DNA from: an uncultured Methanosarcinales archaeon
GTDB taxonomy: Archaea > Nanobdellota > Nanobdellia > Woesearchaeales > JAGWAF01
Assembly: GCA_964359785.1 (NCBI GenBank)
Contig: CAYHWL010000001.1
Coordinates: 2,422-66,421, forward strand
DNA: 64,000 nt
Direction of reading: 5' to 3'
Numbering within the stretch: position 1 is the stretch's first letter; each line of letters begins with the position of its first letter. The notes beneath the pieces are model-generated. The model did not search any database. It was not told where the DNA came from and worked only from the letters and a program-made list of their open reading frames with translations. Below, in pieces: positions 457 through 27,056 of this stretch. The translations under genes were made by a program, and so were the position numbers.

Positions 457-1575
457 TTAAGCTAACACCTTGATGTCCTGCGTGCTTGTTATGGTTTGTT
501 GTTGACTCATTATCTTTATCACAGCCTGATATGGTGGTCTTGGGGATTCCATTGTTCCTCTTGCGATATACTCGTCCGCATTGCTTTCAAGTGTATCGGC
601 ATTCTCGCATTTGTCTCCAAGGCATATCTGCGCAGTGAACTTGTCATATGGCACTTTGATCCTTGCGCGATAATCTGCTTTGTCTCCTTCTTTCAACGCG
701 AGCGCGGTGTTTCCCACTCCTGTGGAAGGCAGTCCATTGACCATAAATGAGGTTATCTCGATAGGCGCCGACGCTGGGATATACACTGCAAATGAGTACC
801 GGATAGGATCATTCTTGAGCACGCCTTTGACGTTGTGCGCATGGCTTGTTTTTGTCTCTACGCAAAAGGTGTAGACGCGGTCATCAGTGAGTGGATTGCC
901 CGTGCACGCGCCAAGCGTCCAGTGCAATCGGTCATTGTCTAGTGGGCCAATTATGTTGTTCACGCAGAGGCTAGGATCATTCCCGTTGCACTCATCTCTT
1001 ATTCTCTCTATGCCATCACTTATTGTCTTATAGTCCCCTATGTCATAATCTACCCTGATATGGAAATCATTTTCTCCAGACAATCTTCCTCTTTTGTCGG
1101 AATAGCTTATCACTATCCTATCATCGCTTGTCCCATAGACATCGAGCATGTCATTTTGCATCACGCTGACGTATTTGATTGGGATGATGGTCTCGGGATA
1201 TGACATCAGCAGAGGGTTCATGTTCTTGAGTATCAATTTGGATAATGTTTCAGCGGTTTTGGTGATGCATGTGCCTGGGCCATTGCTTTGCGTCGCGTAG
1301 ATTGGTATCCCTTGGTTCCAGCCGCAGGAGCTTGTTCCCATCATGGCCAAGTCGGATAGGGCATCCCTTACTGCCTCTTTGGCGGACAATTCGACGTAGT
1401 AGTGCGCATTATCAAGTTTCATCTGGGCAAGGAGAAGTTCGCTTTGTTCGTATCCTATCTGATTTGTCTGTCCTTGCAATTCCATTTTTTTCTCTGTGAT
1501 CACGAAATATGATTGCACTAGTAGCACGATAGTCAGCATGCATACCAATATGGTGAAGAGGAATCCTTTTTTCAT
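457..1575 (-). CDS. secreted or membrane-anchored hypothetical protein with a class III (pilin-like) signal peptide
   Basis: N-terminus is MKKGFLFTILVCMLTIVLLV (KKG followed by a hydrophobic helix). Its start overlaps the upstream gene stop (1572..1575), and it is the last gene of the tightly packed minus-strand array. Confidence 0.6.
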   Translation of the reverse strand: MKKGFLFTILVCMLTIVLLVQSYFVITEKKMELQGQTNQIGYEQSELLLAQMKLDNAHYYVELSAKEAVRDALSDLAMMGTSSCGWNQGIPIYATQSNGPGTCITKTAETLSKLILKNMNPLLMSYPETIIPIKYVSVMQNDMLDVYGTSDDRIVISYSDKRGRLSGENDFHIRVDYDIGDYKTISDGIERIRDECNGNDPSLCVNNIIGPLDNDRLHWTLGACTGNPLTDDRVYTFCVETKTSHAHNVKGVLKNDPIRYSFAVYIPASAPIEITSFMVNGLPSTGVGNTALALKEGDKADYRARIKVPYDKFTAQICLGDKCENADTLESNADEYIARGTMESPRPPYQAVIKIMSQQQTITSTQDIKVLA

Positions 1576-2180
1576 GGTGCCCTCTGGAGTGTCACTTTGG
1601 CGTTCTTACCATCGTACAATGGCACAAGGACGCTAGCGCTGTGCTCCTCTTGCACCACGATGGTCCTCCTTGTGCTTTTGAGTGTTGATCTTATCCCACC
1701 GTCTACACCTACATCGATGTGTACATCTGCGTATTCATCGTAAGGCGGATAGTCGACTGATATTGTCGCCCTGCCAGGGATGTGGACCGTGTCTTGTATC
1801 ATTGGTCCAAGAAAGTATGTCTGTGTCGCACGATCTAGATATCCGCCCATGTCTCCTTCATAGGGCATGGCAAGATTGGTGATGAGCATAGCGACATTCA
1901 CGCCTTCCCATATTTGGGGGTTCAAAGATAGTGTCCTGCCAAGTTTCTCATCAGTTTTTCTTAGCGTGACATCAATATCTGTTGACAATGGTGTCTTGAG
2001 CACAGCCATGAGGCTTTGGTGCGCTTCAAAATCAGTTATCTGACTGCTCAACATATTTGTCTCCACACCCGACAGATTTGTTGTGGCAAATAACACTGCA
2101 GCGAATACCAAAGCAAGGACAGTGATGACCACAGCAGTGAAATCCCCTACTGTGCTGGTGACAAAACCTAGTCGGTTCAT
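1572..2180 (-). CDS. pilin-like / FlaF-FlaG-like protein with an N-terminal TM helix
   Basis: N-terminus MNRLGFVTSTVGDFTAVVITVLALVFAAVLF. It has a 4-nt overlap with both neighbours. Confidence 0.5.
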   Translation of the reverse strand: MNRLGFVTSTVGDFTAVVITVLALVFAAVLFATTNLSGVETNMLSSQITDFEAHQSLMAVLKTPLSTDIDVTLRKTDEKLGRTLSLNPQIWEGVNVAMLITNLAMPYEGDMGGYLDRATQTYFLGPMIQDTVHIPGRATISVDYPPYDEYADVHIDVGVDGGIRSTLKSTRRTIVVQEEHSASVLVPLYDGKNAKVTLQRAP

Positions 2181-2656
2181 TGTTGCATCACCACTTCTAT
2201 TGTCACTTGGCTTGCACGGTCGCCAGGATCTTCATGTATGACCACAGGCATTGTGATTTTCTTGTAGGATGGCCCCCCCTTGATGTTTATCTGTTCTATC
2301 ATGTGTCTAAAATCATCCTTATGGTACCATCTTATCTTGTCTTCTACAGTCACTTTCACTCCCACTGTATTTGGCCGGGGATATGCCATGGCCTCATCCA
2401 TCATTGTGTCAGTCTCCTCATTTCCTAATTTGTCCCCATCAAGCACACCGGTCTGTGCGCGTAGGGTATAAGGGTCCACATAAGTGAGTTCATGTATGGC
2501 TCTTGCTGCGATTATGTCCATCCTGGTCTCTCCAAGTTCAATATTTGTGGGTGTGTTGAGCGCTATTATTCCAGCGATAGCGCTCACTACTGCGATGAGG
2601 AATATGATGCTCCATATCCATCCAATTGTCCAGCTTGCGATTGTTCCTTTGTTCAT
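2177..2656 (-). CDS. pilin-like protein (class III signal peptide-like N-terminus)
   Basis: N-terminus MNKGTIASWTIGWIWSIIFLIAVVSAIAGIIAL. Start and stop overlap neighbours by 4 nt. Confidence 0.5.
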   Translation of the reverse strand: MNKGTIASWTIGWIWSIIFLIAVVSAIAGIIALNTPTNIELGETRMDIIAARAIHELTYVDPYTLRAQTGVLDGDKLGNEETDTMMDEAMAYPRPNTVGVKVTVEDKIRWYHKDDFRHMIEQINIKGGPSYKKITMPVVIHEDPGDRASQVTIEVVMQQ

Positions 2657-3645
2657 GTCTCAAGTGTCATGCGGGTTATACGCAATGTTTTTTGGATTAG
2701 GTCTGTTGTTAGTGATGCGTCCAAGTTTATGCTTCCTATCTCGAGATACACTCCATTCTCTGCAAATTTTAGTATCTTTTTTGTGTCTTGGGCAAGATCA
2801 GGGTCGATTGGCATGGGGATGGCGTCTATCCCTTGCGCGCGTAGTGCGTTTGCGAGATGGCATGCCACGGCTGCATTCTTGGGAAAATGCAGGGATGTCC
2901 CGTCATAATCTATTATGGCTTTGTTGAGCAGATCCCCTGTGTGTATGCTCACAAGGGTTAAGCCGCTTGTTTTGATCGTTTCCTCTCTTTGGGTGGATGT
3001 GAGATATTGATCCTTCGAGAGACTTCTTGTAGTGGCAAATGTTCCCATCCCGGAGTCTAACGCGGCGGTCCTCAATATTTCAGCTTCAGTTTTTCCGGCA
3101 TTGACTTGGCCTGTGTCTACGCCGCTTGGGTTCGTCCACATCCCTCCATGTCCGATATCAAGGATGTATTTTTGGGATTCTAATTTTGGGCAGGTCAATG
3201 AGTCTAACAACATAGTAGGTTTAGTCGATATCATGCTTATTTGGTCGCCGTTTCGCATGAGCGTCATCCCTAAAGGTTTTAGCACATCCGTTGATGTGTA
3301 CTTGAGTTTCTTGCTGCCAAGATAAGGCGCACGCGTCTGTCCCACACTGGCGCGGCCGGAATTCATTGGGGTGGTCTCATATACTAGCACATCATCAGAT
3401 AGCCGGTAATTGAATTTTTCAAGTGATGGGGGGGTGTAGAAGAGCGCTGTGTTTTCCGCCAGGGGGATGACACTTAGCAATAACGCCAGATCGTTGGAGA
3501 GATATGTCTTTGCGAAGTAGGTGTTTTCTTGTATGGGTTTTAGGAATTGGCCGTATAGCACGACGCCTACCATCAGCACGAGCCCTATTTCGAAGAGCAC
3601 CATTGTGGTGTCGAAAAGTTCTGTCTGCGCCCGTCTGTTTAGCAT
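2653..3645 (-). CDS. pilin-like protein, start moved to internal ATG (MLNRRAQTELFDTTMVLFEIGLVLMVGVV)
   Basis: The internal Met at 3643..3645 gives a class III-like N-terminus RRAQ followed by a hydrophobic helix. The upstream gene's stop (TAA, 3639..3641) is 1 nt away. The longer 378-aa ORF in the track would overlap the upstream gene by 150 nt. Confidence 0.55.
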   Translation of the reverse strand: MLNRRAQTELFDTTMVLFEIGLVLMVGVVLYGQFLKPIQENTYFAKTYLSNDLALLLSVIPLAENTALFYTPPSLEKFNYRLSDDVLVYETTPMNSGRASVGQTRAPYLGSKKLKYTSTDVLKPLGMTLMRNGDQISMISTKPTMLLDSLTCPKLESQKYILDIGHGGMWTNPSGVDTGQVNAGKTEAEILRTAALDSGMGTFATTRSLSKDQYLTSTQREETIKTSGLTLVSIHTGDLLNKAIIDYDGTSLHFPKNAAVACHLANALRAQGIDAIPMPIDPDLAQDTKKILKFAENGVYLEIGSINLDASLTTDLIQKTLRITRMTLET

Positions 3646-5591
3646 TTTTCCCCCAGTTGGAAGTGCGAAGGATTCTTCTTGTTTTTTCCAAATCCGTTGT
3701 GGCACATCGACTCTTGTAGGACGGCAAGTGTTGTTTTCCCGATTGGTTCGACATCGACTGCGGTTCCAGCGCCATGTCCTGCAGAACAAGTAGGCATTGA
3801 TTCAGTGTGTCCTAGCAAGAATGATTTCTGCGCATTTTCTTGTGTTTGATATGCCAAAAGCACATTTAGCCCATAGCTTCCTGTGCTGCTTTGTTCTGCG
3901 GCTTTCGCGGAAAGGCTGCTTCTGGCGCCATTCAATGCCTTGACTAGTTCTGGGCTTCCCCGGCAGTCTTGCGCGTTGCAGTCGACTTCGATGTTCTTGA
4001 GTGCAGGTTGTGGACATTTGACTGCGGCTTGAGAGATCATCTTATCACTCAAGAGATCTTTGCACATCTTGAACACCTCATCATTGAGGATGTTTCTTGC
4101 GCATGCTTCTTCAATTATGTCTCTTATCTTGAGATTAGATGATTTATCAGTTAAGACAAGCGTGTTATCTATTCTAAGCGCGATTGCGTGATGAGTGATA
4201 GCCAAGACGGGCTTGTCTGTTCTTTGATATGACATCCCAAGGTATCCTTCTGCCAGGCCAAGATTGCCTGATTCCTTGTGCCGCGTCAGGTATTCTGTGA
4301 ATTTCGTGATCGCCAGTTTATAGTCGCCAGAATCAAACGCGCTTCTTGCTAGCAGCATATCCACGCTCTCGACTCCGCCAGGTAATCTCGTCACCTCACT
4401 TTCGACAGTTCTTATCAGATTTTGGAGTCGTGTCTGTGTCTGTGTATTTGGGGTTGCGAATCCTTTTGCGGTCCGCGCAAGCGTGCTTGCCCGTATCAAG
4501 GCATCTTTGCGGATATCTGTATTCTCGGTCTTGCTTGCCTCAAGGTAGAAACTTAACGCGTCCACAGAGACGAGCGCACTTGGTCTGTCAGCGTCTTGCA
4601 TTGGGACATTAGGGAACCCGAATTTGGGATAGAGATCGACTATGACAGCAGGTGGACTGCGCAGTGCGGCGGTTAGTGTATCTCCCGCGATTATCCTTGT
4701 CTTTGCGACGAATTCGGATTCATCGCCTCGTAGCTGCCAGACTAAGCGCAAGTCTTTGAAAAGTCTCTCATATGCTCTTTGCGCAAGTAGATTCTCAAGG
4801 TCACTGATGTCTGTCTGGTATTTGATGCGCAATGTCTCCGAACGTTTCCTCTCCTGGGCCCGATCGCTTCCAAAGAACATGTAGGTCTGTCCTTTGTGGA
4901 TCAATTTCTCGAGATACACTATACGAGTCATCGAGGGTACCGTTCCCGCCGCAGGATCACATGCTCCAAAGTAGACCAAATCGCTTGGTTGAGGTTGATA
5001 ATCAGGCACGGCGAAATTGATGAGTCCGGTATCCACGGCTCCACGATAATTGTCTACTTGCGGGTCGTCTAGGATTTTCCCGCTGTCTATCCTCTCAAAA
5101 GCGCCTTGCCGGTAATCGCTTGAGTATAGCACGTCTGCGTCTATTGTCCGGCATGCCGGGTTGCCTGTTGGGACCCTTTGTGAAGTGGTGGTGATCTTTA
5201 CGCGAGTGCCAGTGACTGTGTTTATGGTCTTTTGGGTATCATAAAGACAGACGCATGCCTTGCCATGCTTGCATCCGCTTGGTCTAGTGAGTATGAATTG
5301 TTCTCCGCAAGCTCCACTCACGGTCTCTTGATTCTTGCCAAATCCCACAAGCACTTTTTCAGGATCTACGAAATATGGTATGGTGGTCGTGCTTAACGTT
5401 TTCTTATCTAGTGTGAGTTCGGTCATTTTGGCGGCGAGCGTATTTAGGTTCATCTCGCTTGTCTCGCTTTGCGCTCCAAAGAAGATGTCATACACGCCTC
5501 CTCCAAATATGAAAAGTGTTGTGATGGTCGTGAGCATCAAGGCTAACACAGCCAGCTCCAATAATGATATGCTCGTGACCCCTCTTTCCAT
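3639..5591 (-). CDS. large (650 aa) pilin-like secreted protein
   Basis: N-terminus MERGVTSISLLELAVLALMLTTITTLFIF (RG followed by a hydrophobic helix). The rest is large and Cys-containing, with no recognised catalytic motifs. Confidence 0.6.
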   Translation of the reverse strand: MERGVTSISLLELAVLALMLTTITTLFIFGGGVYDIFFGAQSETSEMNLNTLAAKMTELTLDKKTLSTTTIPYFVDPEKVLVGFGKNQETVSGACGEQFILTRPSGCKHGKACVCLYDTQKTINTVTGTRVKITTTSQRVPTGNPACRTIDADVLYSSDYRQGAFERIDSGKILDDPQVDNYRGAVDTGLINFAVPDYQPQPSDLVYFGACDPAAGTVPSMTRIVYLEKLIHKGQTYMFFGSDRAQERKRSETLRIKYQTDISDLENLLAQRAYERLFKDLRLVWQLRGDESEFVAKTRIIAGDTLTAALRSPPAVIVDLYPKFGFPNVPMQDADRPSALVSVDALSFYLEASKTENTDIRKDALIRASTLARTAKGFATPNTQTQTRLQNLIRTVESEVTRLPGGVESVDMLLARSAFDSGDYKLAITKFTEYLTRHKESGNLGLAEGYLGMSYQRTDKPVLAITHHAIALRIDNTLVLTDKSSNLKIRDIIEEACARNILNDEVFKMCKDLLSDKMISQAAVKCPQPALKNIEVDCNAQDCRGSPELVKALNGARSSLSAKAAEQSSTGSYGLNVLLAYQTQENAQKSFLLGHTESMPTCSAGHGAGTAVDVEPIGKTTLAVLQESMCHNGFGKNKKNPSHFQLGEKC

Positions 5592-5647
5592 GCCAAAATC
5601 AATGCCGATTTTGATTTATAAACTATTCGACGAGAGAAACAATATCT

Positions 5648-6139
5648 TCAAGGGGGTGTTGGGGTGAGCACGAAAGCAGGGATCTTGCATGGAGGCATAT
5701 TTTGGATGGCGCCCTGCGACTCTTTGCACTTGCCTTTCATATCTCTTTGACAATAGCTATCCTTTGAGTTCCATGGGTCTACATCGCATGCGTCGGGCAT
5801 CCCATCTTTGTCATAATCACATTGGTTTGACCCTCTTGCCTGTCGCAATTTATCTCCGGTTGAACCTGCCCCTTTCTCGGCAAGGATGCAAAAGTCGCAT
5901 TTATCAGGTGCGCAGTCTCCGTCTTTGTCATCATCTGTTATTTTACATTGCTCGTTTTGCTTCACGCCAAATCCGACACAGCTCATATATTGTTGATGAT
6001 ATGTCAATGGTTGAGTGTTTGCGAGTATCACATTGCTCTCCTTTGAGAGGAATGGAATGATTATGATCATGAGAAAGGCGCCAAGTATGAAATATACTAT
6101 GCTTCCGACAGTCATCTCTACGCCGCGTCGATTCATCAT
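5648..6139 (-). CDS. Cys-rich pilin-like protein with DxDxDG (TSP3-like) Ca-binding motifs
   Basis: N-terminus MMNRRGVEMTVGSIVYFILGAFLMIIIIPFL. Motifs DDDKDGDCAPDKCDFC and DYDKDGMPDACD are present. Start ATGs at 6134..6139 overlap the upstream gene's TGA at 6136..6138. Confidence 0.55.
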   Translation of the reverse strand: MMNRRGVEMTVGSIVYFILGAFLMIIIIPFLSKESNVILANTQPLTYHQQYMSCVGFGVKQNEQCKITDDDKDGDCAPDKCDFCILAEKGAGSTGDKLRQARGSNQCDYDKDGMPDACDVDPWNSKDSYCQRDMKGKCKESQGAIQNMPPCKIPAFVLTPTPP

Positions 6140-6378
6140 TTTACAAGACAGCATTTTTGTTTTATTGAGGCGACATCAGGGCATACGAATTGTTTTGCGG
6201 GCACAGCGCAATCAGAGGTTTCTGCCATGCAGGCCCCGTTCTTCTGCTCGCAGCTATTCACGTTTGTTTGGAAGTTTCCTGTCTGTTTTGTGAGGATTAG
6301 CCCCAAAACAAGCAACACTAATAACACGAGCACTGCGATGACTATTGTCGATAATGCCAATTCTTGTCCTTTTCGCAT
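6136..6378 (-). CDS. small archaeal type IV pilin (class III signal peptide), candidate major pilin
   Basis: N-terminus MRKGQELALSTIVIAVLVLLVLLVLGLIL (KG|Q followed by a hydrophobic helix). 80 aa with a Cys-rich C-terminus (…KCCLVK). It is a paralog of the 8565..8846 gene. Confidence 0.7.
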   Translation of the reverse strand: MRKGQELALSTIVIAVLVLLVLLVLGLILTKQTGNFQTNVNSCEQKNGACMAETSDCAVPAKQFVCPDVASIKQKCCLVK

Positions 6379-6413
6379 ATGAATTCACTTCCAAAGTGGG
6401 TTTTTATGTCTTG

Positions 6414-6563
6414 CTATGGTTTGAGTTTGCTGATCATGTCCACCCCTCCTTGGGCCAAATTGTAGGGCTTCTGTCCGAATATGTACAACAAGATCACAAC
6501 GGCTACTAGCATCAAGATTATCTCGATTATATGATCCATGATGATATTGCCTTTCTTGTTCAT
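6414..6563 (-). CDS. 49-aa pilin-like mini-protein (not in the ORF track)
   Basis: Hand translation gives MNKKGNIIMDHIIEIILMLVAVVILLYIFGQKPYNLAQGGVDMISKLKP with stop TAG at 6414..6416. Its start ATG (6561..6563) overlaps the upstream gene's TGA in an ATGA arrangement. It is paralogous to the adjacent 49-aa gene. Confidence 0.45.
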   Translation of the reverse strand: MNKKGNIIMDHIIEIILMLVAVVILLYIFGQKPYNLAQGGVDMISKLKP

Positions 6564-6709
6564 GGCATAAGCCTCCATCCGGAGACAATCGTCTTGAATC
6601 CTCCTTGTTCATATGCGAGAATCATTAATAGCACTAGCAATAACACGGCCACAAGGATGAATTCGCCAAGGTGATCCATTACGATGCTTCCTTTATGGTT
6701 CCTTCCCAT
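6560..6709 (-). CDS. 49-aa pilin-like mini-protein (not in the ORF track)
   Basis: Hand translation gives MGRNHKGSIVMDHLGEFILVAVLLLVLLMILAYEQGGFKTIVSGWRLMP with stop TGA at 6560..6562. It shares the motif KGxIxMDHxxExIL with its tandem paralog. Confidence 0.45.
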   Translation of the reverse strand: MGRNHKGSIVMDHLGEFILVAVLLLVLLMILAYEQGGFKTIVSGWRLMP

Positions 6710-21700: not shown

Positions 21701-21757
21701 TAGTATAGCGCACGCTACAAAGAGCAACATGAATCCTCTTTTTTGGCGTTTTTCCAT
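15788..21757 (-). CDS. giant (1989 aa) Cys-rich surface protein with four thrombospondin-type-3 Ca-binding super-repeats, a C-terminal TM anchor and a Lys/Glu-rich cytoplasmic tail
   Basis: Sec-type signal peptide (MEKRQKRGFMLLFVACAILYIVTLPSA) and many N-x-S/T sequons. Three Cys modules of the form TDGxETxxDCGGxCxxC are present. There are four repeats of about 84 aa of the form DSDGDGMPDWWExKYGLNPN…DTDGDG. A TM segment (ILTASIIIIGGFIFYYLW) is followed by a KE-rich tail. Confidence 0.8.
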   Translation of the reverse strand: MEKRQKRGFMLLFVACAILYIVTLPSASPQSGSNVCCCNSNGTAQKGTMLQVSECDTSKNFTPTSPSIFGITQAIDLKDICYVVCNQTKVNITFVNISYQCGNPDYTPPVYDLGIHPIRGERSLQIVWKSNCTEQINGFNVSRCQGDNCATTMFTTSTILAANETGFLDNRPDLIWNKSFTYQVKVLFKGGKESNPTFASSYLGDLECQGKTTDALFCINGPVFYQQFSTYLTSYGYSNVDKSAFSSNFQQRVVDSFFGRFKKAYSCNPLNQLVSNLDCSQTNSYCAIQSAGPACVPFDTCHNVTPHFGLSITSDICEGNSKDYRYCFYDRSASLIDYCFQCEPTNACYDYKTRNACEKDNCRVKNCQWKDIFPAIGIGVCIDTSQTNCYYCDAKGTLGADNNRPPHRSYNEIFDACTKAKSDALSTSQFPCFYNSQGSGSSFSCINATCLDYKTREDCAGPGITIDRNTNRILIRSTDQCNIGVCQWNDIKKCAKNADGAEQNNDFRDCPYGAGDAKLRSCEMDYFPPETRMVPMSTTNPSRIDYVSITRLDRVNALYSANIISGLSAPTKYCTYAPGATPCIPSKTTTADRLTFSEAGLVDGSLVTQPLFDGDTTLRFFGEDPSHNLEIINELTFRACKGCYGPLVIGKNVSHAKRIANDTYRTSDRRPIITIGMNVESTVTERIFGTPTRVIAADQTVMVPKYNFSFSPIEDLLEGTYTFRMRAIGNTNIPMDQPDQTILIVDLTPPTVNATINAITLNGANIDTSAGMLVLRFSEPVTLKNVTLVHTTINQFSSRIEPVEITTNLSRQNTQGNLYGLSLTLDDGPNTLLLQAEDDALNQISSRADFMVTAHASPIRLYLPPYGAAPNFTFDVGVETLTLTKCRFLFDPGGFIYPDFANWRKMDNDAISSQHVITNFNEIAPLPSNRNRRFDFLVRCVDAQNRDIRQDFTLIVQDQTPVIISAVADPNPIIQSPLTTTLKVSTDIETFCKYSNTTANYDQMENTFSGYNFMALNSHITDLTVGNVGSYTYRVACKSASGLGSVGATILFRVDPGRQFILTDYTPSGKIFGIPTALFSIGSNKDATCSFAIDTVVRLTESAGSQVHNLTTNFDVNSGGRHNTRTNCRTLGNTVISGVPETGEVNTDFWIDLRDPTMLIVNDSTQFEDSQVSADFDRLPLWYNGSDPDTGIVRYTYTLRAQNGSAIRGPVSENNPEHANVVTGLTLRNTESYYFEMQAVDRAGRNSSIMRSTGVRIDNASRPLTCSNNRTDGRETATDCGGNCLGCKDGLRCSVNWDCLNSSCLGGICRTVSCTDGARNGDETAIDCGGSCSACPVVTVLPNGTIVVTYNNTIVLSNGTIVVISNDTSRPNRTCRTLDECRNISSCIYDSDCNGGRCTYGICQATPRCENNATDGTETDTDCGGACPTKCGDGLQCKTTSDCGSGLACMITIADTHTCQDSGKDSDADGMPDWWEIKYGLNPNSASDASMDSDGDGMTNLEEYNYFKDNNRDINPKKADTDGDGAPDGLEVKANTNPIDPNSRPSDVDSDGDGMPDDWERAHGLNPNDPLDANLDNDNDGLSNFAEYRYLKTVGKEIDPNKADTDGDGFNDKAEIDAGTDPTDSKSYPRDDKDTDMDGMPDWWEKKYNLDPNDPNDATGDPDGDGLTNLEEYNHFNQNGQDMDPHKNDTDGDSYLDGEEVLAGSNPADPNSIPPDSDGDGVPDWWESKYGFDPKNSADAMEDSDGDGATNLDEYNYYHRTGSFVDPTNSDTDGDGYHDGAEIIGGSNPTDATSTPAFDWAKWILTASIIIIGGFIFYYLWTKNASNVVNKEKKKEQMPKLDLSSGMTTPPETGRMAKNLPESSVTTRTAGAGKEEYIAVGKLGKKEAAPDTSAFGKLRSFSGISKGEESTLSPEMQALENMALMRFTDSEREELKKKLDLARKGKLSKKDLEELFKKLRITAAYWEKNKDLIQKQFETWKKPAVKRRK
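16200..17370 (-). repeat. four tandem coding super-repeats of about 250 nt (TSP3-like DxDxDG modules) inside the giant gene
   Basis: Recurring DNA motifs such as ccaatcaggcatgccatc (encoding DGMPDWW) appear at about 16590, 16830, 17080 and 17330 on the plus strand, a period of about 250 nt. Confidence 0.6.
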
Positions 21758-21761
21758 GGAT

Positions 21762-23156
21762 TTAACCTAATTTCTTGACGATTGCTGGGAATATAAGCGT
21801 TTGGCTGTCCGCCAATTCATCGTCGGTGACATTGACGCTAAAGACAAATCTCATAGATGGTTCCCTCGCCACAAACTCCACCATCAAGAAGGGGATGGGT
21901 TTTTCAGGGTTTGCAGGGTCCCTTGGTTCTGGGGCGACGCTTGGTTCAGGCAGCTCCATGGTGTACTCGAATCGCAATGGATTATCATCAGGATCTATCG
22001 CGTTTAAGGTGATGCATAATTGTTGGGGAGAGCATAATGGAGCATTCTTGATGCAAAACACTTGATTGACGATCCCGATTGTAGGCTCTATCTTGTTCCC
22101 CTCCTTATCTTCTGTTGCACAGACCACGAAATTATTGACTGCGTCACGGCGTGCGGAATCATTTAGGAGGAACAGCGCAGGCCTCCTGTTTTTTATCGCG
22201 AATCGGAATTCAAATGGACGCTCCAATATGTTGCTATATGGGTCTCTGACGATGTAGAGATAATCCAATCGGTTCACATTTGGCTTTCTGTCATAGGTCA
22301 GGTTTTCTACTTTGATCTCGCTGATATTTATCGAGAGATTGCTCACGTCTTGATCTAACAACTGGCTGGTGAATTCTATTATTTGCCCAAGCCTGACTGG
22401 ATAGTCTACCTCAAAATTTTCCAGTTTTGACTCGGCTTGTGTGACTGTATTGGATAGGTTGATTGGCCAATTGAGTTGGACCGTTACGTCGGCTAGATTG
22501 ACTGTGACTGTTGTGTTTGGGCCTGATTTGCGTATTCTTATATTGCCCTTGGATAGGTCCTGCCAGCGTACGCAAGTCTGCATCTTGTTTGTGATATATA
22601 CTTCCAACTGCTCCTGGATGCTTCTGGAGAATGTCTTGGTGAGATGGGTGAGTCTATTGTATCCTGCGAATGCCAATGTGTTGTATCCCGGGCTGCATGG
22701 TTGTGTTATGCATTGGGTCTCCGGAAAGCCCGCCCAGGGATATTCCGGAGGGCTGGATTTATAGAATCCAAATAGATCCCCCATAGGTCCTACGACTGCA
22801 TATGGCACGTCCTTGTCTTCATAGCGCAGGTATTCTTGCCCAAAACATGGAGGATAATCAGATACTCCAAAGCACACCTGATTAAATGATTTGGTGGGGC
22901 CGCCCTGTGTGTCGTATATCACCCCTCCTTGGTCCCCTAGTAATGCCAGTCCCTTGCGCGCCGCAAGATCCAGGCAATATTTCACTTCCTGTTTGATAGG
23001 AAGGATCTCTTCCGCTCCAAGCTGCGTCTTTGCTATGGTTTGGCTTGTGGTTTGCGCGATGAAGTTATTATAGATATAATAGAATGAGCTAAACAGAAAG
23101 ATCAGTACTATGCATATGATTAGGAATACTGTGACTTGTCCGGTCTTCTTTCGCAT
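21762..23156 (-). CDS. hypothetical secreted protein with a class III-like signal (MRKKTGQVTVFLIICIVLIFLF); start at internal ATG
   Basis: The internal Met (residue 36 of the tracked ORF) gives a KKTG|Q plus hydrophobic-helix N-terminus. The stop lies 4 nt upstream of the giant gene's start. Confidence 0.55.
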   Translation of the reverse strand: MRKKTGQVTVFLIICIVLIFLFSSFYYIYNNFIAQTTSQTIAKTQLGAEEILPIKQEVKYCLDLAARKGLALLGDQGGVIYDTQGGPTKSFNQVCFGVSDYPPCFGQEYLRYEDKDVPYAVVGPMGDLFGFYKSSPPEYPWAGFPETQCITQPCSPGYNTLAFAGYNRLTHLTKTFSRSIQEQLEVYITNKMQTCVRWQDLSKGNIRIRKSGPNTTVTVNLADVTVQLNWPINLSNTVTQAESKLENFEVDYPVRLGQIIEFTSQLLDQDVSNLSINISEIKVENLTYDRKPNVNRLDYLYIVRDPYSNILERPFEFRFAIKNRRPALFLLNDSARRDAVNNFVVCATEDKEGNKIEPTIGIVNQVFCIKNAPLCSPQQLCITLNAIDPDDNPLRFEYTMELPEPSVAPEPRDPANPEKPIPFLMVEFVAREPSMRFVFSVNVTDDELADSQTLIFPAIVKKLG

Positions 23157-23273
23157 TTTGTCCTCTATTTTCCCGAGCCCTTCCTGACGGCAAACATTTC
23201 GGCAAGGGTGATTCCCTCGTATGTCACTATATATAGTTTTGGATAGGCAAGATTGCATCAAAGAATAAGTGTC

Positions 23274-24083
23274 TTACTCGGTTCGGTTCATCTGTCCTAT
23301 CGCTGATTTACATATGCGTCTTGCTTCGTCATTTGGGATCATGTCACAGTAATTCACGTCTGTGAGATTTATCGCTAATTGTTGCGATGATTGCAGCTTG
23401 CATTCTTCTACCATGAATTCATATGGCAGTGACTGGCATGTCAAGGAATTCTTCGTGATTATAGCTGTTTGGATGGCTGATTTCACTTTCTCTCTCAATT
23501 GTTCCTGCGCTCCCGGATCCACTCTTGCAAGTATATCCAGCACGCAACGCGATTGCAGTGCAGGATCGTTCTTTGGACAGGCCGTTGGATCGACGTTCAT
23601 TCTTGCTTTGATCAATTGCATGAATGTCTCGCAATTTTGTCTGTTGTCTCCAAGGTTCGCACACAATGATGGATTGTCTGTCAAGGCGCCAAGCCCTATG
23701 GTGGCTTTCAATTTGGTGGATTCTTCATTCACGGCCTTAGCCAAGGCCTCTTTGAGTTTTGTCATGCATTCTTCTCTGGCATTTTTCTCGTCCATTCCAA
23801 GGCATTGGAATGGATCAAGGGCAATTATCGCTTGTTCTGTGATTATTTGCGCAAGGGAAGGGGCGGCTTGTCTTTGATATAGATAATATGTGGATCCAGC
23901 CAGCACAAGACATACCAATAAGAGCGCGTAAGCCGCGATCCTGTATCCTCTGACGTGGTCTGCGAGGAGGCCTACGATATCCGAGTACCCTTCATTGTGG
24001 AGTTCTCTTATGATCTCATCGCTAGAAAGTTTCTGTTTTCTTTTCGTGGAGATGAATTTCTCGATTGGAACTTGTTTGACCAT
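23274..24083 (-). CDS. single-pass membrane protein (about 50-aa cytoplasmic N-terminus, TM helix, Cys-rich extracellular domain)
   Basis: TM segment YALLLVCLVLAGSTYYLY. The C-terminal region has about 10 Cys residues. Confidence 0.55.
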   Translation of the reverse strand: MVKQVPIEKFISTKRKQKLSSDEIIRELHNEGYSDIVGLLADHVRGYRIAAYALLLVCLVLAGSTYYLYQRQAAPSLAQIITEQAIIALDPFQCLGMDEKNAREECMTKLKEALAKAVNEESTKLKATIGLGALTDNPSLCANLGDNRQNCETFMQLIKARMNVDPTACPKNDPALQSRCVLDILARVDPGAQEQLREKVKSAIQTAIITKNSLTCQSLPYEFMVEECKLQSSQQLAINLTDVNYCDMIPNDEARRICKSAIGQMNRTE

Positions 24084-24137
24084 AGGATTGGGATGTATAT
24101 CGGCTTATTATATGTTTTGTGCATTACAGTGAGGTGT

Positions 24138-26225
24138 CTACCTTAGTTTCGCGCTAAAGTCTCTCCATACATCCTTGAGATTGCCCCATGAGCTGGTTGT
24201 GAATGCTGCGAATTTCAGGGTATTCCCGCTTTGTGTGCAGTCCCTTGGCAGGTCGGTCCTTAGGTTGTTGTTTAGAAGATCGCACCCGGTCATCCCAGTT
24301 GGGTCGGTGATATTGATATTGACATATCGCGCCGCAGTGTAATCTACTTTGCTTCCATTGAGGTATCTTTGTCTTTGGATGAAGCTAAAGAGGTCTTTTG
24401 GAGTCTTTCGGTTATAATATATCGCGTCAAATACTGTGGTGCTGGACAACGTGCTTTGCATATCCGCAAGAGTGGGTTTTCCAGCATAATTGACAAGATC
24501 CGCGAATCGGGTGGCGAGTGCTGGCCATCTTCTGGTTTCCACCTCATTTGGCCCAATTGAGCTTATCGCGCCATAAGGCGTGTAGATCAAAGTGTTAAGT
24601 CCCGGATTATAGGATATCCCGTTTCCGCATGGATGGAACAGACTGTCGCCTATGGCAAGCGCGTTATCACATGAATGTATACTCTTCCCAAGTGCGGGCA
24701 GGAAGCTTTGCATGCTGTCATTCACTGCCACATTCAGGCTGGTGCCAAAAGCCGCTCCCTTGGTGCTTGTGAGTACACAGAACTGGTTCACACAAGAAGT
24801 CTTTGTCCCTCTGATGACGCAAGGTTTCTCTAAGTAGCTCCTTACAGGCCCTGCGTTTGGAAGCGCTTCATAGTCGATGAAATTGAGGGTCTCGTTGAAA
24901 TAATCGCAGAATATGGAGTAATTGTTCACCGAGTTTATCTCTGCGTAATCCACTAGGTACATGGCAAGAAGTTTGGTCCTGCTTGACCAGTTTCCGGATG
25001 CGCAATAATACTGTTGGATTGAGGTCTTGTCATTTATGCAGGCTGGTTGTTTGGTTGTGTAAAAAGAGTCCGGATCATCCGCTAAGGATATGTTGCCTGC
25101 GGGATTGACAAGACACTGTGTCATATTGGGGCAGTATCCCTTATTTTGGTCATTCCAAGTGTACTTTACAGGCTGGTACACCCAGTCTCCAGCTATACAT
25201 CGATAGCCTCCGCTTGTGGTCGGTCTTGTTTCAAAGGTTTGGTCGGCTATGCAGGAGATGCCATTCCAGCAGCCTGTCTCTGGGCAGCATTCGACATTGT
25301 TTGCTGAATTGTTGAGTGGGTATAGAAGTTGGTTTCTCACTTCTGGGATCACATATTTTGGTTTGAGTTTGTTTTGTTTTGTTGTGAGTGTCCATGTCCC
25401 GTTGAATGAGCAATAGTAATTGACATTGACTGCGCGCGTGGCATTGTACGCCAAAGTGCAACGGTTTGTATCGTTGATGAGGGGTTTGCCATTATGTGAA
25501 TCCTTCATGGTCAATAGATTTGGATTTGTCTCGTTTAGTTGGCATCCGAAGAATTGGCCAAGTATGGTGAGCACGCTTCCGTTTGTGTTGTTCACGGTAT
25601 ATCCATTCGCCGCGAATCTGCTTTTGAAACATGCTCCGCTTTCATCGTCTTTATAGTCAGGTGGATTTGGGTCTTGGTATGATTCATTTGGCCAATCGTA
25701 TTTCTCGCCGCAACATTTCTTGCCTGTCCATCGTAGATTTGCGAGTTTGCAGGTTAACGGATCTTTGTTGTCAAGGTCCTGTGCCCATTCAGCGTCTTTT
25801 GCGCAGTAGAAAGTAGGGCTTGACGGATTTTCGCTGATGCTGATGGTGATTGGGCTTGCTGCTGATATTGAGCCAGGCGGTCCAGTATTGATATACATCT
25901 CTATGGCTTTTATTGCCACAAAACCAGTCCTCCCGATTTTTTGGCTATCCAATTCACAGCTCATAGTTGAGGCATCAGAATCATAATCCAAGATGATAGT
26001 ATGGTCCGAATTAGGCGCCCATGAGGAGACATCAAATACAGTTTCTACCCTGCCTGCCCCTTTGACATTCTTGCAGATGATTTTCGTGTCAACCTTTTCG
26101 ATCGATAGGTAGGCATCAGGCGCTTCCTTGGCATGGAAGAGCACCCTATTGAGGTTCTCCTTGCCTTCCCATGTGTTATGGATTGAGAGCACGATGTGTC
26201 CTCTTGTTGAATTGTAATTTGCCAA
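24138..26225 (-). CDS. C-terminal 695-aa part of a secreted Cys/N-glycosylation-sequon-rich protein (in frame with the 26343..27056 ORF; separated by a single TGA)
   Basis: The tracked ORF starts at a TTG codon and has no signal peptide of its own. It carries many NxS/T sequons and Cys residues typical of an extracellular protein. It is in the same frame as the upstream ORF. Confidence 0.55.
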   Translation of the reverse strand: MANYNSTRGHIVLSIHNTWEGKENLNRVLFHAKEAPDAYLSIEKVDTKIICKNVKGAGRVETVFDVSSWAPNSDHTIILDYDSDASTMSCELDSQKIGRTGFVAIKAIEMYINTGPPGSISAASPITISISENPSSPTFYCAKDAEWAQDLDNKDPLTCKLANLRWTGKKCCGEKYDWPNESYQDPNPPDYKDDESGACFKSRFAANGYTVNNTNGSVLTILGQFFGCQLNETNPNLLTMKDSHNGKPLINDTNRCTLAYNATRAVNVNYYCSFNGTWTLTTKQNKLKPKYVIPEVRNQLLYPLNNSANNVECCPETGCWNGISCIADQTFETRPTTSGGYRCIAGDWVYQPVKYTWNDQNKGYCPNMTQCLVNPAGNISLADDPDSFYTTKQPACINDKTSIQQYYCASGNWSSRTKLLAMYLVDYAEINSVNNYSIFCDYFNETLNFIDYEALPNAGPVRSYLEKPCVIRGTKTSCVNQFCVLTSTKGAAFGTSLNVAVNDSMQSFLPALGKSIHSCDNALAIGDSLFHPCGNGISYNPGLNTLIYTPYGAISSIGPNEVETRRWPALATRFADLVNYAGKPTLADMQSTLSSTTVFDAIYYNRKTPKDLFSFIQRQRYLNGSKVDYTAARYVNINITDPTGMTGCDLLNNNLRTDLPRDCTQSGNTLKFAAFTTSSWGNLKDVWRDFSAKLR

Positions 26226-26342
26226 GGTTCCAGTACGTACCGATTCGGTGGCAAGAAGGCTTGCCGCATAGAGTTCTCCGGCGGTATGGCTTTCTCCGAT
26301 CTGTGCGACCCTTCCATCTTGGGTGTCATATGCTGGATCGTC

Positions 26343-27056
26343 TCAGGAGCATTCCAGGATGTTCCTATAGCTGTCATTGTTGCTGGGGGTGTCTTCCGCG
26401 CAAAGATATGAATGGGAGGGTTTGTCGCCCACCCCTGTCTTGGTCATGTTCATCAAAGTGAACGTCTTATATGTATTCACGCTGCCTAACCCTATGCCGC
26501 ACAGATAAAAATCATTTCCATCGCTAAGGATTTGCGCTTGGGCGCATTGGAGATTGAATATGTCTGCTTTGTTCGAGATTAATTTTGCCCATTTCCAGGT
26601 TTCGGGGCCTATCGAGGGATTCACGCATGCTTCGCTGCCTATGCGCATCCCGCAGTTGTCCGTCGGATGAGCGCCGCAGCATTTGGAATTAGCAGTGGAC
26701 CAGTTCACGGTCTTGTTCGCGAAGCATACGGGAAGTGTGAGGTAATTGTTTCCTCTGCAATATGTGGAGGTATCCCACGAGACGGCATGCGTGTTTAGTT
26801 CCGCGTAATTCGCCTGATCATTTCCGCCGACGGTGAATTTGAGTTTGTACTGTCCCTCTTGAGAGCATACTTTGGCCACATCTTGTATCGGAAGCTTACA
26901 TTCTCCATTTCCTTCGCATGTGTTTGTCTCCATCGCCACAGAGGCATCCGGTGCTAGAAGCTGCAGTTTGCTTGATTGCGCGGACACAGCTATCGAGAAG
27001 ATTATACAGACAGCTAAATAGAACACGATAACCAGGTTTCTCCTGTCGATATGCAT
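26343..27056 (-). CDS. N-terminal 237-aa part (with signal peptide) of the same secreted protein; ends at an in-frame TGA
   Basis: N-terminus MHIDRRNLVIVFYLAVCIIFSIAVSAQS (signal peptide). A TATA box (ctttatatata) lies about 25 nt upstream of the ATG at 27054..27056. The stop TGA at 26343..26345 is followed in frame by DDPAYDTQDG…. Confidence 0.6.
   Translation of the reverse strand: MHIDRRNLVIVFYLAVCIIFSIAVSAQSSKLQLLAPDASVAMETNTCEGNGECKLPIQDVAKVCSQEGQYKLKFTVGGNDQANYAELNTHAVSWDTSTYCRGNNYLTLPVCFANKTVNWSTANSKCCGAHPTDNCGMRIGSEACVNPSIGPETWKWAKLISNKADIFNLQCAQAQILSDGNDFYLCGIGLGSVNTYKTFTLMNMTKTGVGDKPSHSYLCAEDTPSNNDSYRNILECS

What the first reader, a model, noticed from the sequence alone, without database searches (positions are those of the whole stretch)
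457..27056. Two long operon-like arrays encoding at least 18 class III signal-peptide (type IV pilin-like) proteins
Almost every gene in 457..8846 and 10362..27056 begins with [KR][GA][QDTSVF] followed by a hydrophobic helix, the hallmark of archaeal prepilins and archaellins. The genes are packed with 1-4 nt overlaps. Known archaeal T4P or archaellum loci carry a handful of pilins next to an ATPase and a platform protein. Here there are 18 or more pilin-like genes, a giant adhesin and a sensor-kinase-like protein, and no ATPase or platform gene in the window. A dedicated prepilin peptidase gene sits at 31221..31934. This looks like an expanded and possibly undescribed archaeal surface filament or adhesion system.
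Basis: partly seen in the sequence, partly recalled or inferred. Interest (0 to 1): 0.8.

Follow-up and report, generated by a model that had tools for sequence, protein, structure and literature searches.

The report
Woesearchaeal pilin operon with wall-cutting enzymes
A small groundwater archaeon carries a lineage-typical operon of about 18 pilin-like surface proteins, a giant adhesin and a pilin-like protein fused to an enzyme that cuts bacterial cell walls, which suggests a filament for gripping and breaching bacteria.

Summary
Between 457 and 27056 I count 16 canonical and 2 near-canonical class III (prepilin-type) N-termini, including two 49-aa genes. The genes are tightly packed. A Peptidase_A24 gene with both catalytic Asp motifs lies at 31221-31934. 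No assembly ATPase or platform gene is in the window.

It is not a one-off expansion. The same array recurs in over 30 Woesearchaeota/Pacearchaeota genomes in a fixed order: giant Sec-secreted protein, four minor-pilin-like genes, one or two ~90-aa pilins, about ten more pilin-like genes, then RPA. It is never next to an ATPase or platform gene in the flanks fetched. Here a three-gene insertion splits it.

The ~90-aa family has an almost invariant N-terminal helix and a hypervariable Cys-containing head, as major pilins do.

New finding: 2653-3645 is a pilin-like module fused to an Amidase_3 peptidoglycan hydrolase. The module occurs alone in other genomes. Related arrays carry pilin-like proteins with Amidase_2, SLT and M15 domains.

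Best reading: subunit operon of a type IV filament with a tip adhesin and wall-lytic modular pilins, aimed at bacteria. Filament assembly, processing and target are inferred.

The giant protein has a Sec signal. The 'sensor kinase' call is weak. New variant of a known kind.

The parts
8565..8846 (-). 93-aa small pilin (MAKG|QELS...); candidate major filament subunit
   Evidence: It has 121 homologues of about 90 aa, all from Woesearchaeota-type MAGs. The first 35 residues are almost invariant and the C-terminal about 50 residues are hypervariable with conserved Cys (A3).
7656..8381 (-). 241-aa class III protein (MKG|QAYTLVEM...)
   Evidence: N-terminus shown. Sub-threshold N_methyl / IV_pilin_GFxxxE hits, E 0.03-0.05. 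The orthologue in L007 is 35% identical.
6745..7659 (-). 304-aa class III protein (MRKG|DITM...)
   Evidence: The orthologue in L007 is 40% identical. It passes the strict FlaFind-style pattern.
6560..6709 (-). 49-aa mini class III protein (HKG|SIVMD...), essentially helix only
   Evidence: It is conserved as L007:12312-12461. Similar 45-47-aa genes occur in L008, L017, L019 and L022.
6414..6563 (-). 49-aa mini class III protein (MNKKG|NIIMD...), paralogue of 6560-6709
6136..6378 (-). 80-aa small pilin (MRKG|QELA...), paralogue of 8565-8846
   Evidence: 42% identity over the N-terminal 45 aa to 8565-8846. It aligns within family A3.
5648..6136 (-). 162-aa class III protein, Cys- and Asp-rich
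   Evidence: The orthologue in L007 is 41% identical.
3639..5591 (-). 650-aa class III protein; the C-terminal about 70 aa carry an HxxGxAVDV...PSHFQ motif resembling VanY/M15 peptidases (suggestive only)
   Evidence: N-terminus. The L007 orthologue (509 aa) lacks the C-terminal piece. The best match of that piece is an M15-hitting class III protein, L033:14232-15578, at E 0.2. Pfam and PDB give no hit for the window protein itself.
2653..3645 (-). 330-aa modular pilin-like protein: class III leader and helix, about 135-aa alpha/beta module, then an Amidase_3 (N-acetylmuramoyl-L-alanine amidase) domain at residues about 155-330
   Evidence: 56 homologues. The family profile hits PDB peptidoglycan amidases at E 1e-19. 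43 of 47 members hit Pfam Amidase_3. H166, E187, H235 and E302 are nearly invariant. AF2 model has pLDDT 87. The top 17 Foldseek PDB hits are Amidase_3 enzymes. The N-terminal module occurs alone in at least 12 loci.
2177..2656 (-). 159-aa class III protein (MNKG|T...)
   Evidence: The orthologue in L007 is 41% identical.
1572..2180 (-). 202-aa near-canonical class III protein (RLG|F)
   Evidence: The L007 orthologue has SRG|F.
457..1575 (-). 372-aa class III protein (MKKG|F...); last gene of the array, followed by an RPA gene
   Evidence: The orthologue in L007 is 36% identical. The array also ends at RPA in L008, L017, L019 and L024.
8892..13190 (.). Three-gene insertion that splits the array: AsnC/Lrp regulator (8892-9353, -), AbrB/MazE-like protein (9476-10402, +), and a 942-aa membrane protein with SPDG/PD40-like repeats and a weak kinase-fold C-terminus (10362-13190, -)
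   Evidence: Pfam results. Profile against PDB gives only sub-threshold kinase and APH hits. The same trio is present in L005 and L007. It is absent from the continuous arrays of L008, L017, L019, L022 and L024.
13229..15791 (-). Four minor-pilin-like genes in invariant order (184, 341, 165 and 164 aa: 15237-15791, 14215-15240, 13716-14213, 13229-13723)
   Evidence: Orthologues are in the same order in L002, L004, L005, L006 and L008, and in 27 loci by HMM. The G/A|Q junction and an acidic residue at +2/+3/+6 are conserved. The AF2 model of the 341-aa protein has pLDDT 82, a 50-residue N-terminal helix and a beta domain. It has no PDB structural relative.
15788..21757 (-). 1989-aa giant secreted protein (75 Cys, TSP3 calcium-binding repeats); candidate adhesin; Sec-type signal peptide followed by CCC
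   Evidence: TSP3_bac E 1.4e-35. Orthologues of 1684-2155 aa always lie directly upstream of the four small genes. Sec-like N-termini are seen in all orthologues. No PDB sequence match.
21762..23156 (-). 464-aa class III-type protein (KKTG|Q)
   Evidence: Orthologues of 427-474 aa lie directly upstream of the giant gene. They are canonical RRG|Q and QKG|Q in L002 and L006.
23274..24083 (-). 269-aa protein with one TM segment at about residues 44-62; not class III; absent from L005
24138..27056 (-). About 972-aa Sec-signal, 41-Cys secreted protein; first gene of the array; interrupted by one in-frame TGA at 26343-26345
   Evidence: same frame on both sides of the TGA, and homology to the L004 (54% identity) and L005 orthologues extends upstream of the TTG start.
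31221..31934 (-). Prepilin (class III signal) peptidase, 237 aa
   Evidence: Peptidase_A24 E 3.7e-9. Both catalytic Asp motifs are present.

Best explanation
The region is the subunit operon of a Woesearchaeota-type type IV filament. It is a single conserved array that a three-gene insertion has split in this genome.

**Proposed mechanism**
1. The prepilin-like proteins enter the membrane through their N-terminal helix.
2. The Peptidase_A24 enzyme at 31221-31934 trims them after the conserved Gly/Ala.
3. An ATPase and platform protein encoded elsewhere in the genome polymerise them.
4. The 93-aa and 80-aa proteins build the shaft.
5. The four small genes next to the giant gene form a priming or tip complex. 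This complex presents the Sec-secreted 1989-aa calcium-binding adhesin, in the way bacterial minor pilins present PilY1.
6. The larger pilin-like proteins are modular pilins that carry effector domains. At least one effector, at 2653-3645, is a zinc N-acetylmuramoyl-L-alanine amidase.
7. The filament would therefore attach this ultrasmall archaeon to bacterial cells and locally cut their peptidoglycan.

**Shown**
- The signal-peptide-like N-termini and their conservation.
- The conserved gene order across the lineage.
- The major-pilin-like conservation pattern of the ~90-aa family.
- The amidase identity and its fusion to a module that also exists alone.
- The peptidase gene.

**Inferred**
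- Cleavage of the leaders.
- Polymerisation into a filament.
- Tip location of the four-gene complex and the adhesin.
- The adhesin role of the giant protein.
- A bacterial target.
For: **Class III-type N-termini**
- I count 18 class III-type N-termini, against 0-5 hits in shuffled sequence.
- Orthologues at 26-70% identity keep the Gly/Ala|Gln junction in register with the helix.

**Conserved array**
- The order is giant protein, four small genes, small pilins, about ten more class III genes, then RPA. This holds in L008, L017, L019, L022 (complete AR15 chromosome) and L024.
- Every array-1 gene is conserved in the same order in L007.

**Major-pilin signature**
- The ~90-aa family has an invariant helix and a hypervariable head.

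**Structure models**
- The AF2 models show a 50-60-residue N-terminal helix followed by an antiparallel beta-sheet.

**Amidase_3 fusion**
- Sequence profile evidence.
- Structural evidence.
- The N-terminal module occurs alone in at least 12 arrays and fused to the amidase in 7.

**Other wall-hydrolase fusions in related arrays**
- Class III proteins with Amidase_2 (3), SLT (2) and M15 (1) domains.

**Peptidase**
- The A24 peptidase carries both catalytic motifs.

**Literature**
- Pili from ultrasmall groundwater cells penetrate host envelopes (PMC7906910). Several of the related loci come from that same groundwater data set.
- Woesearchaeota and Pacearchaeota were already suspected of attacking bacterial walls (PMC8204110, PMC9723730).
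- Modular pilins and the minor-pilin/PilY1 tip complex are established in bacteria (PMC8179133).
Against: - No assembly ATPase or platform gene is present in the window or in any of about 40 related 10-20 kb flanks. Assembly into a filament is therefore unproven, and I could not inspect whole genomes.
- No protein reaches threshold for any pilin or archaellin HMM.
- A strict FlaFind-type pattern accepts only 2 of the 17 it was run on.
- The giant protein has no PilY1-type domain.
- The window amidase itself is too divergent to hit Pfam alone. Its activity and substrate are untested.
- The M15 call for 3639-5591 is motif-level only.
Confidence: 0.55

Rival explanations
1. Bindosome-like or simply tethered surface proteome. 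The class III leaders are used only for export and membrane or S-layer anchoring of a set of surface enzymes and binding proteins. No extended filament is made, or only a short pseudopilus.
For: - No ATPase or platform gene is adjacent in any locus.
- Many array members are large (300-650 aa) and include enzymes.
- Archaeal non-pilin proteins with class III signals are well documented. Examples are the Sulfolobus bindosome and the substrate-binding proteins surveyed in bioRxiv 10.64898/2026.04.22.720090.
Against: - The ~90-aa and 49-aa proteins have almost nothing but the polymerisation helix, and they show the invariant-helix, variable-head pattern of shaft pilins.
- The fixed four-gene set next to a giant secreted protein mirrors known tip complexes.
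- No substrate-binding-protein domains were found.
Confidence: 0.22
2. Secretion pseudopilus, analogous to type II secretion. The small pilin-like proteins form a piston that pushes the Sec-exported giant proteins and hydrolases through the S-layer.
For: - Two very large Sec-signal proteins (972 aa and 1989 aa) head the array.
- The four small genes, one of them large, resemble the GspH-I-J-K set in number and size.
Against: - The hydrolases carry the pilin-type leader themselves rather than a Sec signal.
- No secretin-independent archaeal type II secretion system has been described. This point rests on my own knowledge.
- No ATPase is nearby.
Confidence: 0.1
3. The amidase and related hydrolases act on the archaeon's own envelope, or serve nutrient scavenging of free muropeptides, rather than attacking a bacterial host.
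For: Bacterial trans-envelope machines often recruit wall hydrolases to open a passage. This point rests on my own knowledge. Nothing in the data identifies the substrate.
Against: - I saw no peptidoglycan or pseudomurein synthesis genes in the 64-kb window. This is weak evidence, since the window is only part of the genome.
- Four different bacterial-type peptidoglycan hydrolase families recur on pilin-like carriers in the arrays.
- The literature infers bacterial targets for this lineage (PMC8204110, PMC9723730).
Confidence: 0.08
4. Ordinary uncleaved signal-anchor (type II) membrane proteins. On this view the [KR][GA] motif is incidental and the proteins have nothing to do with type IV filaments.
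For: - There are no pilin HMM hits.
- Most N-termini fail the strict FlaFind-style pattern.
Against: - The Gly/Ala|Gln junction sits at a fixed distance from the helix and is conserved through 26-70% identity.
- Eighteen such genes are clustered, against one elsewhere in the window.
- A catalytically intact prepilin peptidase is present.
- An acidic residue lies at +2 to +7 in 13 of the 16 canonical N-termini.
Confidence: 0.05

Closest known systems
Euryarchaeal Epd-type pili / archaeal TFF 'system 1' (Methanococcus maripaludis EpdA-L, major pilin MMP1685)
   Same: - Class III leaders with Gln at +1.
- A very short major pilin.
- Several minor pilins.
- Adhesin-like accessory proteins.
- Pilin genes partly at loci separate from the ATPase.
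- Reported in methanogens and some DPANN (bioRxiv 10.64898/2026.04.22.720090; PMC3875500).
   Different: - No detectable sequence similarity to any Epd or Pfam pilin family.
- The Epd core locus contains the ATPase, a split platform protein and its own peptidase, whereas these arrays never do.
- These arrays are much longer, at 17-20 class III genes.
Bacterial type IV pilus minor-pilin / PilY1 tip complex (FimU-PilVWX plus PilY1) and type II secretion GspH-I-J-K
   Same: - Four small pilin-like genes in fixed order, one much larger than the rest.
- These lie directly beside a very large, Sec-dependent, non-pilin, calcium-binding surface protein.
   Different: - The resemblance is analogy of arrangement only.
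- No homology was found, and there is no PilY1 beta-propeller domain.
- The 341-aa protein has no structural match to GspK or PilX or to anything else in the PDB.
Modular type IV pilins of bacteria (Streptococcus sanguinis PilB and PilC; many CPR bacteria), PMC8179133
   Same: A small pilin module that also exists on its own carries a grafted functional domain at its C-terminus.
   Different: - The leader here is of the archaeal class III type.
- The grafted domains are peptidoglycan hydrolases (Amidase_3, Amidase_2, SLT, M15-like) rather than vWA or lectin modules.
Sulfolobus bindosome and archaeal substrate-binding proteins with class III signals
   Same: Non-structural proteins that use the prepilin pathway.
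   Different: The cargo here is wall hydrolases and unknown domains, not solute-binding proteins. Dedicated tiny and small pilins are encoded alongside.
Large extracellular murein transglycosylase proteins of Woesearchaeota and Pacearchaeota (PMC8204110, PMC9723730) and archaeal secreted peptidoglycan hydrolases (PMC12352652)
   Same: Same lineage and the same inferred target, the bacterial cell wall.
   Different: Those reports considered giant SLT proteins or Sec/Tat-secreted enzymes. None of them mentions a pilin-type leader or a location inside a pilin operon.

Membership tests
Type IV filament (TFF) subunits: archaeal class III signal-peptide proteins | Short basic leader ending in Gly/Ala, followed at once by an about 20-residue hydrophobic helix | tested here: met
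   16 canonical and 2 near-canonical N-termini. The junction is conserved in orthologues. Each protein has a single N-terminal TM segment.
Type IV filament (TFF) subunits: archaeal class III signal-peptide proteins | Recognition by established predictors or HMMs (FlaFind pattern, Pfam Class_IIIsignal or N_methyl, NCBIfam pilin models) | tested here: not met
   No hit reaches threshold. Only 7656-8381 gives sub-threshold N_methyl, E 0.03. A strict FlaFind-like expression written from memory passes 2 of the 17 it was run on. FlaFind and SignalP themselves could not be run.
Type IV filament (TFF) subunits: archaeal class III signal-peptide proteins | A prepilin peptidase (A24 family) in the genome that cleaves the leader | tested here: inconclusive
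   The gene is present with both catalytic Asp motifs. Cleavage of these substrates cannot be tested with these tools.
Type IV filament (TFF) subunits: archaeal class III signal-peptide proteins | Assembly ATPase (PilB/FlaI/VirB11 family) and platform protein (PilC/TadC/FlaJ) | tested here: not met
   Absent from the 64-kb window and from all related flanks. The rest of the genome could not be examined, so this concerns linkage, not presence in the genome.
Type IV filament (TFF) subunits: archaeal class III signal-peptide proteins | Pilin fold: long N-terminal helix whose C-terminal half packs on an antiparallel beta-sheet | tested here: inconclusive
Major pilin | Conserved polymerisation helix with a variable, often disulfide-bonded, exposed head; small size; abundant in the lineage | tested here: met
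   Alignment A3 of 40 of the 121 homologues.
Minor-pilin / PilY1-type tip complex | Set of about four minor pilins co-encoded with a large non-pilin adhesin | tested here: met
   The order is invariant in L002, L004-L006, L008, L017, L019, L022 and L024.
Minor-pilin / PilY1-type tip complex | Homology to PilY1/PilC (C-terminal beta-propeller) or to GspK/PilX-type minor pilins | tested here: not met
   The giant protein hits only TSP3 repeats in Pfam and has no PDB sequence match. The 341-aa model has no structural match.
Amidase_3 (zinc N-acetylmuramoyl-L-alanine amidase, PF01520) | Profile and structural similarity over the catalytic domain | tested here: met
   The family profile hits PDB amidases at E 1e-19. 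43 of 47 members hit PF01520, best E 5e-19. The top 17 Foldseek hits are Amidase_3 enzymes. The window sequence alone does not reach Pfam threshold.
Amidase_3 (zinc N-acetylmuramoyl-L-alanine amidase, PF01520) | Zinc ligands His-Glu-His and the catalytic Glu | tested here: met
   H166 (GHGG), E187, H235 (SIH) and E302 (LEIG) are nearly invariant across 47 sequences.
Amidase_3 (zinc N-acetylmuramoyl-L-alanine amidase, PF01520) | Hydrolysis of the MurNAc-L-Ala bond of peptidoglycan | not testable with these tools
   This needs an enzyme assay.
Archaellum | Archaellin family subunits plus FlaC-J/ArlC-J genes | tested here: not met
   No Arch_flagellin or Fla/Arl family hits in the window.
   The only hits are a weak APH hit, E 0.014, and sub-threshold protein-kinase-fold and APH hits to a 4-sequence profile, E 0.07-0.3.

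The most novel reading that the evidence does not exclude
Woesearchaeota and Pacearchaeota build a lineage-specific 'lytic pilus'. On this reading the filament's minor subunits are modular pilins carrying interchangeable peptidoglycan hydrolases (Amidase_3, Amidase_2, SLT, M15), and its tip holds a giant calcium-binding adhesin. The filament would let these ultrasmall archaea latch onto bacteria and bore through their cell wall. That would be the first molecularly defined cross-domain attack or attachment organelle of DPANN archaea. It would also be direct genomic evidence that their hosts or prey are bacteria.
Probability: 0.3. Interest if true: 0.8.

Novelty: new variant of a known kind. Interest (0 to 1): 0.58.

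Why it matters
**The open question.** Woesearchaeota and Pacearchaeota are among the most abundant uncultured archaea in groundwater and sediments. Who they attach to, and how, is still unknown.

**What this locus adds.**
- It gives a concrete, lineage-wide gene set for their surface filaments. ATPase-centred censuses cannot see it, because the array is never linked to an ATPase gene in the flanks I could fetch.
- Its proteins match no curated family.

**Why the hydrolase fusions matter.**
- Bacterial-type peptidoglycan hydrolases fused to a pilin-like carrier inside this operon point to bacteria as the partner or prey.
- They suggest a mechanism: enzymes presented on a filament.
- They may also explain why many archaeal peptidoglycan hydrolases appear to lack a Sec or Tat signal.

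**Testability.** Each step can be tested with recombinant proteins, metaproteomics of the 0.2-µm groundwater fraction, and cryo-ET.

Tried and rejected
**Family and homology searches that gave nothing**
- Pfam, NCBIfam and PHROGs scans of all array proteins gave only TSP3 repeats in the giant protein.
- A word-indexed homologue search with the 330-aa protein returned only the protein itself. The exhaustive phmmer search was needed to find its family.
- Single-sequence PDB searches of the 330-aa, 650-aa, 942-aa and 1989-aa proteins gave nothing significant.

**Amidase and M15 leads**
- BLAST of the 330-aa protein against a CwlC sequence written from memory was not significant. The amidase call therefore rests on the family profile and the structure model instead.
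- The C-terminus of the 650-aa protein looks by eye like a VanY/M15 peptidase. It has only an E 0.2 match to an M15-hitting relative. I do not claim it.

**Structure searches**
- The AFDB Foldseek library was unavailable.

**Looking for the assembly genes and the source contig**
- I searched about 40 related loci for Walker-A or multi-TM candidates for the ATPase and platform. The eight candidates look like other proteins, such as a tRNA synthetase, MCM and RadA, judging from N-terminal sequence or precomputed Pfam. None resembled a secretion ATPase or PilC.
- Retrieving the window's own 67-kb NCBI contig failed.

**Other dead ends**
- Simple motif and BLAST searches could not locate the individual SLT and other Amidase_2 proteins counted.

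**Readings rejected**
- Archaellum: no archaellins or Fla/Arl genes.
- Mobile element or virus: GC content is uniform, and synteny with RPA is conserved across the lineage.
- Histidine-kinase sensor for the 942-aa protein.

Full report
**Origin and context**

The window is archaeal. It encodes RNase P p30, an eRF1/Pelota-type factor, archaeal PheRS alpha and beta, RFC, a proteasome-activating AAA ATPase, tRNA-intron endonuclease and Cdc6/Orc1. Identical short contigs come from the 0.2-µm filter fraction of Hainich aquifer well H52. Every homologue of the array proteins comes from MAGs labelled Woesearchaeota, Nanoarchaeota, Pacearchaeota, or simply archaeon. The organism is therefore an ultrasmall DPANN archaeon of the Woesearchaeota type. 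GC content is even across the region. No tRNA or Rfam family is present.

**Checking the observation**

- All genes of interest lie on the minus strand.
- Sixteen start with a 2-10-residue basic leader ending in [KR][GA], followed immediately by one hydrophobic helix. Two more are near-canonical here and canonical in orthologues.
- Two of the sixteen are 49-aa genes in the apparent gap at 6379-6744. One has a clear orthologue in locus L007.
- The same scan gives 21 hits in the real sequence against 0-5 in shuffles. It finds only one real hit outside the arrays.
- Each protein has a single N-terminal TM-like segment.
- Junctions are mostly 1-8-nt overlaps.
- Peptidase_A24 is confirmed at 31221-31934, with both catalytic aspartate motifs.
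- No ORF in the window hits a secretion ATPase or platform family. The gene beyond position 1 is an RPA homologue.

- The giant protein has a Sec-type signal peptide in all orthologues: AxA cleavage followed by a conserved Cys-Cys-Cys.
- The first gene of the array is a ~972-aa Sec protein split by one in-frame TGA.
- The 942-aa 'sensor kinase' has only sub-threshold kinase-fold similarity.

**Not an isolated expansion**

The 341-aa protein has only 13 homologues in 5.8 billion sequences. Their contigs show the same neighbourhood: a ~1000-aa secreted protein, a 430-470-aa class III protein, a 1700-2150-aa giant, then four class III genes of about 170, 340, 160 and 160 aa.

The 93-aa pilin has 121 homologues. 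Scanning one genome per GTDB species with its conserved helix returned 33 loci, all from this lineage. They include the complete AR15 chromosome and two further chromosome-scale (1.5-1.8 Mb) records. Each locus holds 7-16 class III-type genes per 20 kb or less.

In L008, L017, L019, L022 and L024 the genes form one uninterrupted array: giant, four small genes, one or two ~90-aa pilins, about ten more class III genes. Except in L022, where the fetched stretch stops short, the array ends at the RPA gene. The window's array 1 also ends at RPA.

L007, from a neighbouring Hainich well, contains every array-1 gene in the same order at 26-70% identity. The window therefore holds a single conserved array. 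An AsnC regulator, an AbrB-like gene and the 942-aa membrane protein have been inserted into it. L005 and L007 share this insertion.

None of these flanks contains a candidate ATPase or platform gene.

**What the parts look like**

*The ~90-aa family.* It has an almost invariant first 35 residues, KK[AG]|QGLSxNVIIVAAIALIVLVVLVAIFTGRLG, and a hypervariable Cys-containing C-terminal ~50 residues. This is the classic pattern of a shaft-forming pilin under surface diversification.

*The 49-aa proteins.* They are little more than leader plus helix, with Asp at +5.

*Mature N-termini.* Of the 16 canonical N-termini, 8 begin with Gln and 13 have an acidic residue at +2 to +7.

*The giant protein.* It carries five TSP3 calcium-binding repeats and 75 cysteines.

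**The unexpected component**

By eye, 2653-3645 showed GHGG, SIH and LEIG motifs. Direct HMM and PDB searches failed. The evidence then came from several directions.
- The orthologue in L007 had a weak precomputed Amidase_3 hit.
- An exhaustive phmmer search found 56 full-length relatives.
- Their profile hits solved N-acetylmuramoyl-L-alanine amidases at E 1e-19.
- 43 of 47 members hit Pfam Amidase_3.
- The zinc ligands and the catalytic Glu are nearly invariant.
- The AlphaFold model (pLDDT 87) matches Amidase_3 structures in the top 17 Foldseek hits.
- Some relatives are already named amidases in NCBI.

The N-terminal ~135 residues form a helix plus beta-sheet module. The same module occurs as a stand-alone 133-147-aa class III protein in at least 12 arrays. 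It is fused to the amidase in the window, L007, L012, L015, L023, L028 and L033. In L028 a second amidase, Amidase_2, follows.

Among 116 class III proteins of 190-800 aa from these arrays, Pfam finds Amidase_2 (3), SLT (2), Amidase_3 (1) and Peptidase_M15 (1). The C-terminus of the window's 650-aa protein shares the HxxGxA[VI]D...PxHF motif with the M15-hitting protein. The match is only E 0.2, so I treat it as a lead.

**Mechanism**

The best-supported reading is a type IV filament subunit operon.
1. The A24 peptidase processes the leaders.
2. An unlinked ATPase/platform pair assembles the filament.
3. The small pilins form the shaft.
4. The four conserved genes act as a priming or tip complex that presents the Sec-secreted giant adhesin, as bacterial minor pilins present PilY1.
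5. Modular pilins display wall hydrolases.

The following are shown:
- the N-termini and their conservation
- the synteny across the lineage
- the major-pilin pattern of the ~90-aa family
- the amidase fusion
- the peptidase gene

The following are inferred:
- processing of the leaders
- polymerisation
- tip location
- the adhesin role of the giant protein
- bacteria as the target

The main rival is that the class III leaders only tether a surface proteome, in bindosome fashion, without a long filament. Lesser rivals are a secretion pseudopilus, self-directed wall remodelling, and incidental signal anchors.

**Comparison with what is known**

Already described for archaeal type IV filaments:
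- Separate pilin and ATPase loci
- Multiple minor pilins
- Large adhesins

Already described for bacteria:
- Modular pilins
- The minor-pilin/PilY1 tip complex

Earlier work on Woesearchaeota and Pacearchaeota:
- They were noted to have lineage-specific extracellular proteins of unknown function and giant murein transglycosylases. Bacterial hosts or prey were proposed.
- Pili penetrating hosts were imaged for ultrasmall groundwater cells.
- A survey of archaeal peptidoglycan hydrolases considered only Sec and Tat signals.

I found no paper in the held library that links prepilin-type leaders to peptidoglycan hydrolases in archaea, or that describes this array. That library is incomplete.

I therefore class the locus as a new variant of a known kind. 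It is an ordinary type of machine, with lineage-specific unannotated families, an unusually long ATPase-unlinked array, and a new cargo class.

**Verdict**

- Observation: confirmed.
- Interest: moderate to fairly high, mainly because the hydrolase-bearing pilin-like proteins make the question 'what do Woesearchaeota attach to, and how' directly testable.

Noticed in passing
window 26343-26345 (within 24138-27056, minus strand): A single in-frame TGA splits a ~972-aa Sec-signal, 41-Cys protein into two ORFs. Similarity to the L004 and L005 orthologues continues between the TGA and the apparent TTG start. It could be a pseudogene, a sequencing error or a read-through site.
   Followed up: partly
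window 43492-49497 (+): A third surface-protein cluster. It holds a 390-aa class III protein (MRRG|Q), a 563-aa protein with about six N-terminal TM segments, and three paralogous 310-317-aa secreted or lipoprotein-like proteins. None has a Pfam hit.
   Followed up: partly
window 15788-21757 and orthologues (L002:4435-9489, L004:3598-9435, L005:3593-9442): In the giant protein, the signal-peptide cleavage site is followed within a few residues by a conserved Cys-Cys-Cys motif (for example GSNVCCCNSNG). Its role is unknown.
   Followed up: no
window 6414-6709 (-); L007:12312-12461: Two tandem 49-aa genes encode only a class III leader, a helix and a short tail, with Asp at +5 as in bacterial pilins. 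Ordinary ORF length cut-offs miss them. Similar 45-47-aa genes occur in most related arrays.
   Followed up: partly
window 8381-8491 (-): A 36-aa ORF encodes a single TM helix (MSEVVEGG|SMSLVMMIL...) between two pilin-like genes. It lacks a basic residue before the Gly, so it is doubtful as a gene.
   Followed up: no
window 39920-41311 (+): An IS66-family transposase (E 1.6e-26), which shows mobile-element activity in this small genome.
   Followed up: no
window 10362-13190 (-): A 942-aa protein with repeated SPDG (PD40/TolB-like) motifs at the N-terminus, weakly hydrophobic central segments, and a C-terminal region with only sub-threshold APH and protein-kinase-fold similarity. This is a receptor-kinase-like architecture inserted in the pilin array, together with AsnC and AbrB-like regulators.
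   Followed up: partly
L028:6766-8805: A 679-aa class III protein carries the pilin-like module, an Amidase_3-like domain and a second Amidase_2 domain (E 2.9e-14). This gives two different peptidoglycan amidases on one pilin-like carrier.
   Followed up: partly
loci L009, L015, L016, L023, L024, L026, L027, L030: GTDB records titled 'uncultured Methanosarcinales archaeon' (binchicken MAGs) carry typical Woesearchaeal pilin arrays. The record titles look like mislabels.
   Followed up: no
window 28493-31182 (+): A radical SAM enzyme is followed by a 450-aa Cys-rich protein of unknown function, lying between the array and the prepilin peptidase. No family hit was found for the second protein.
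   Followed up: no
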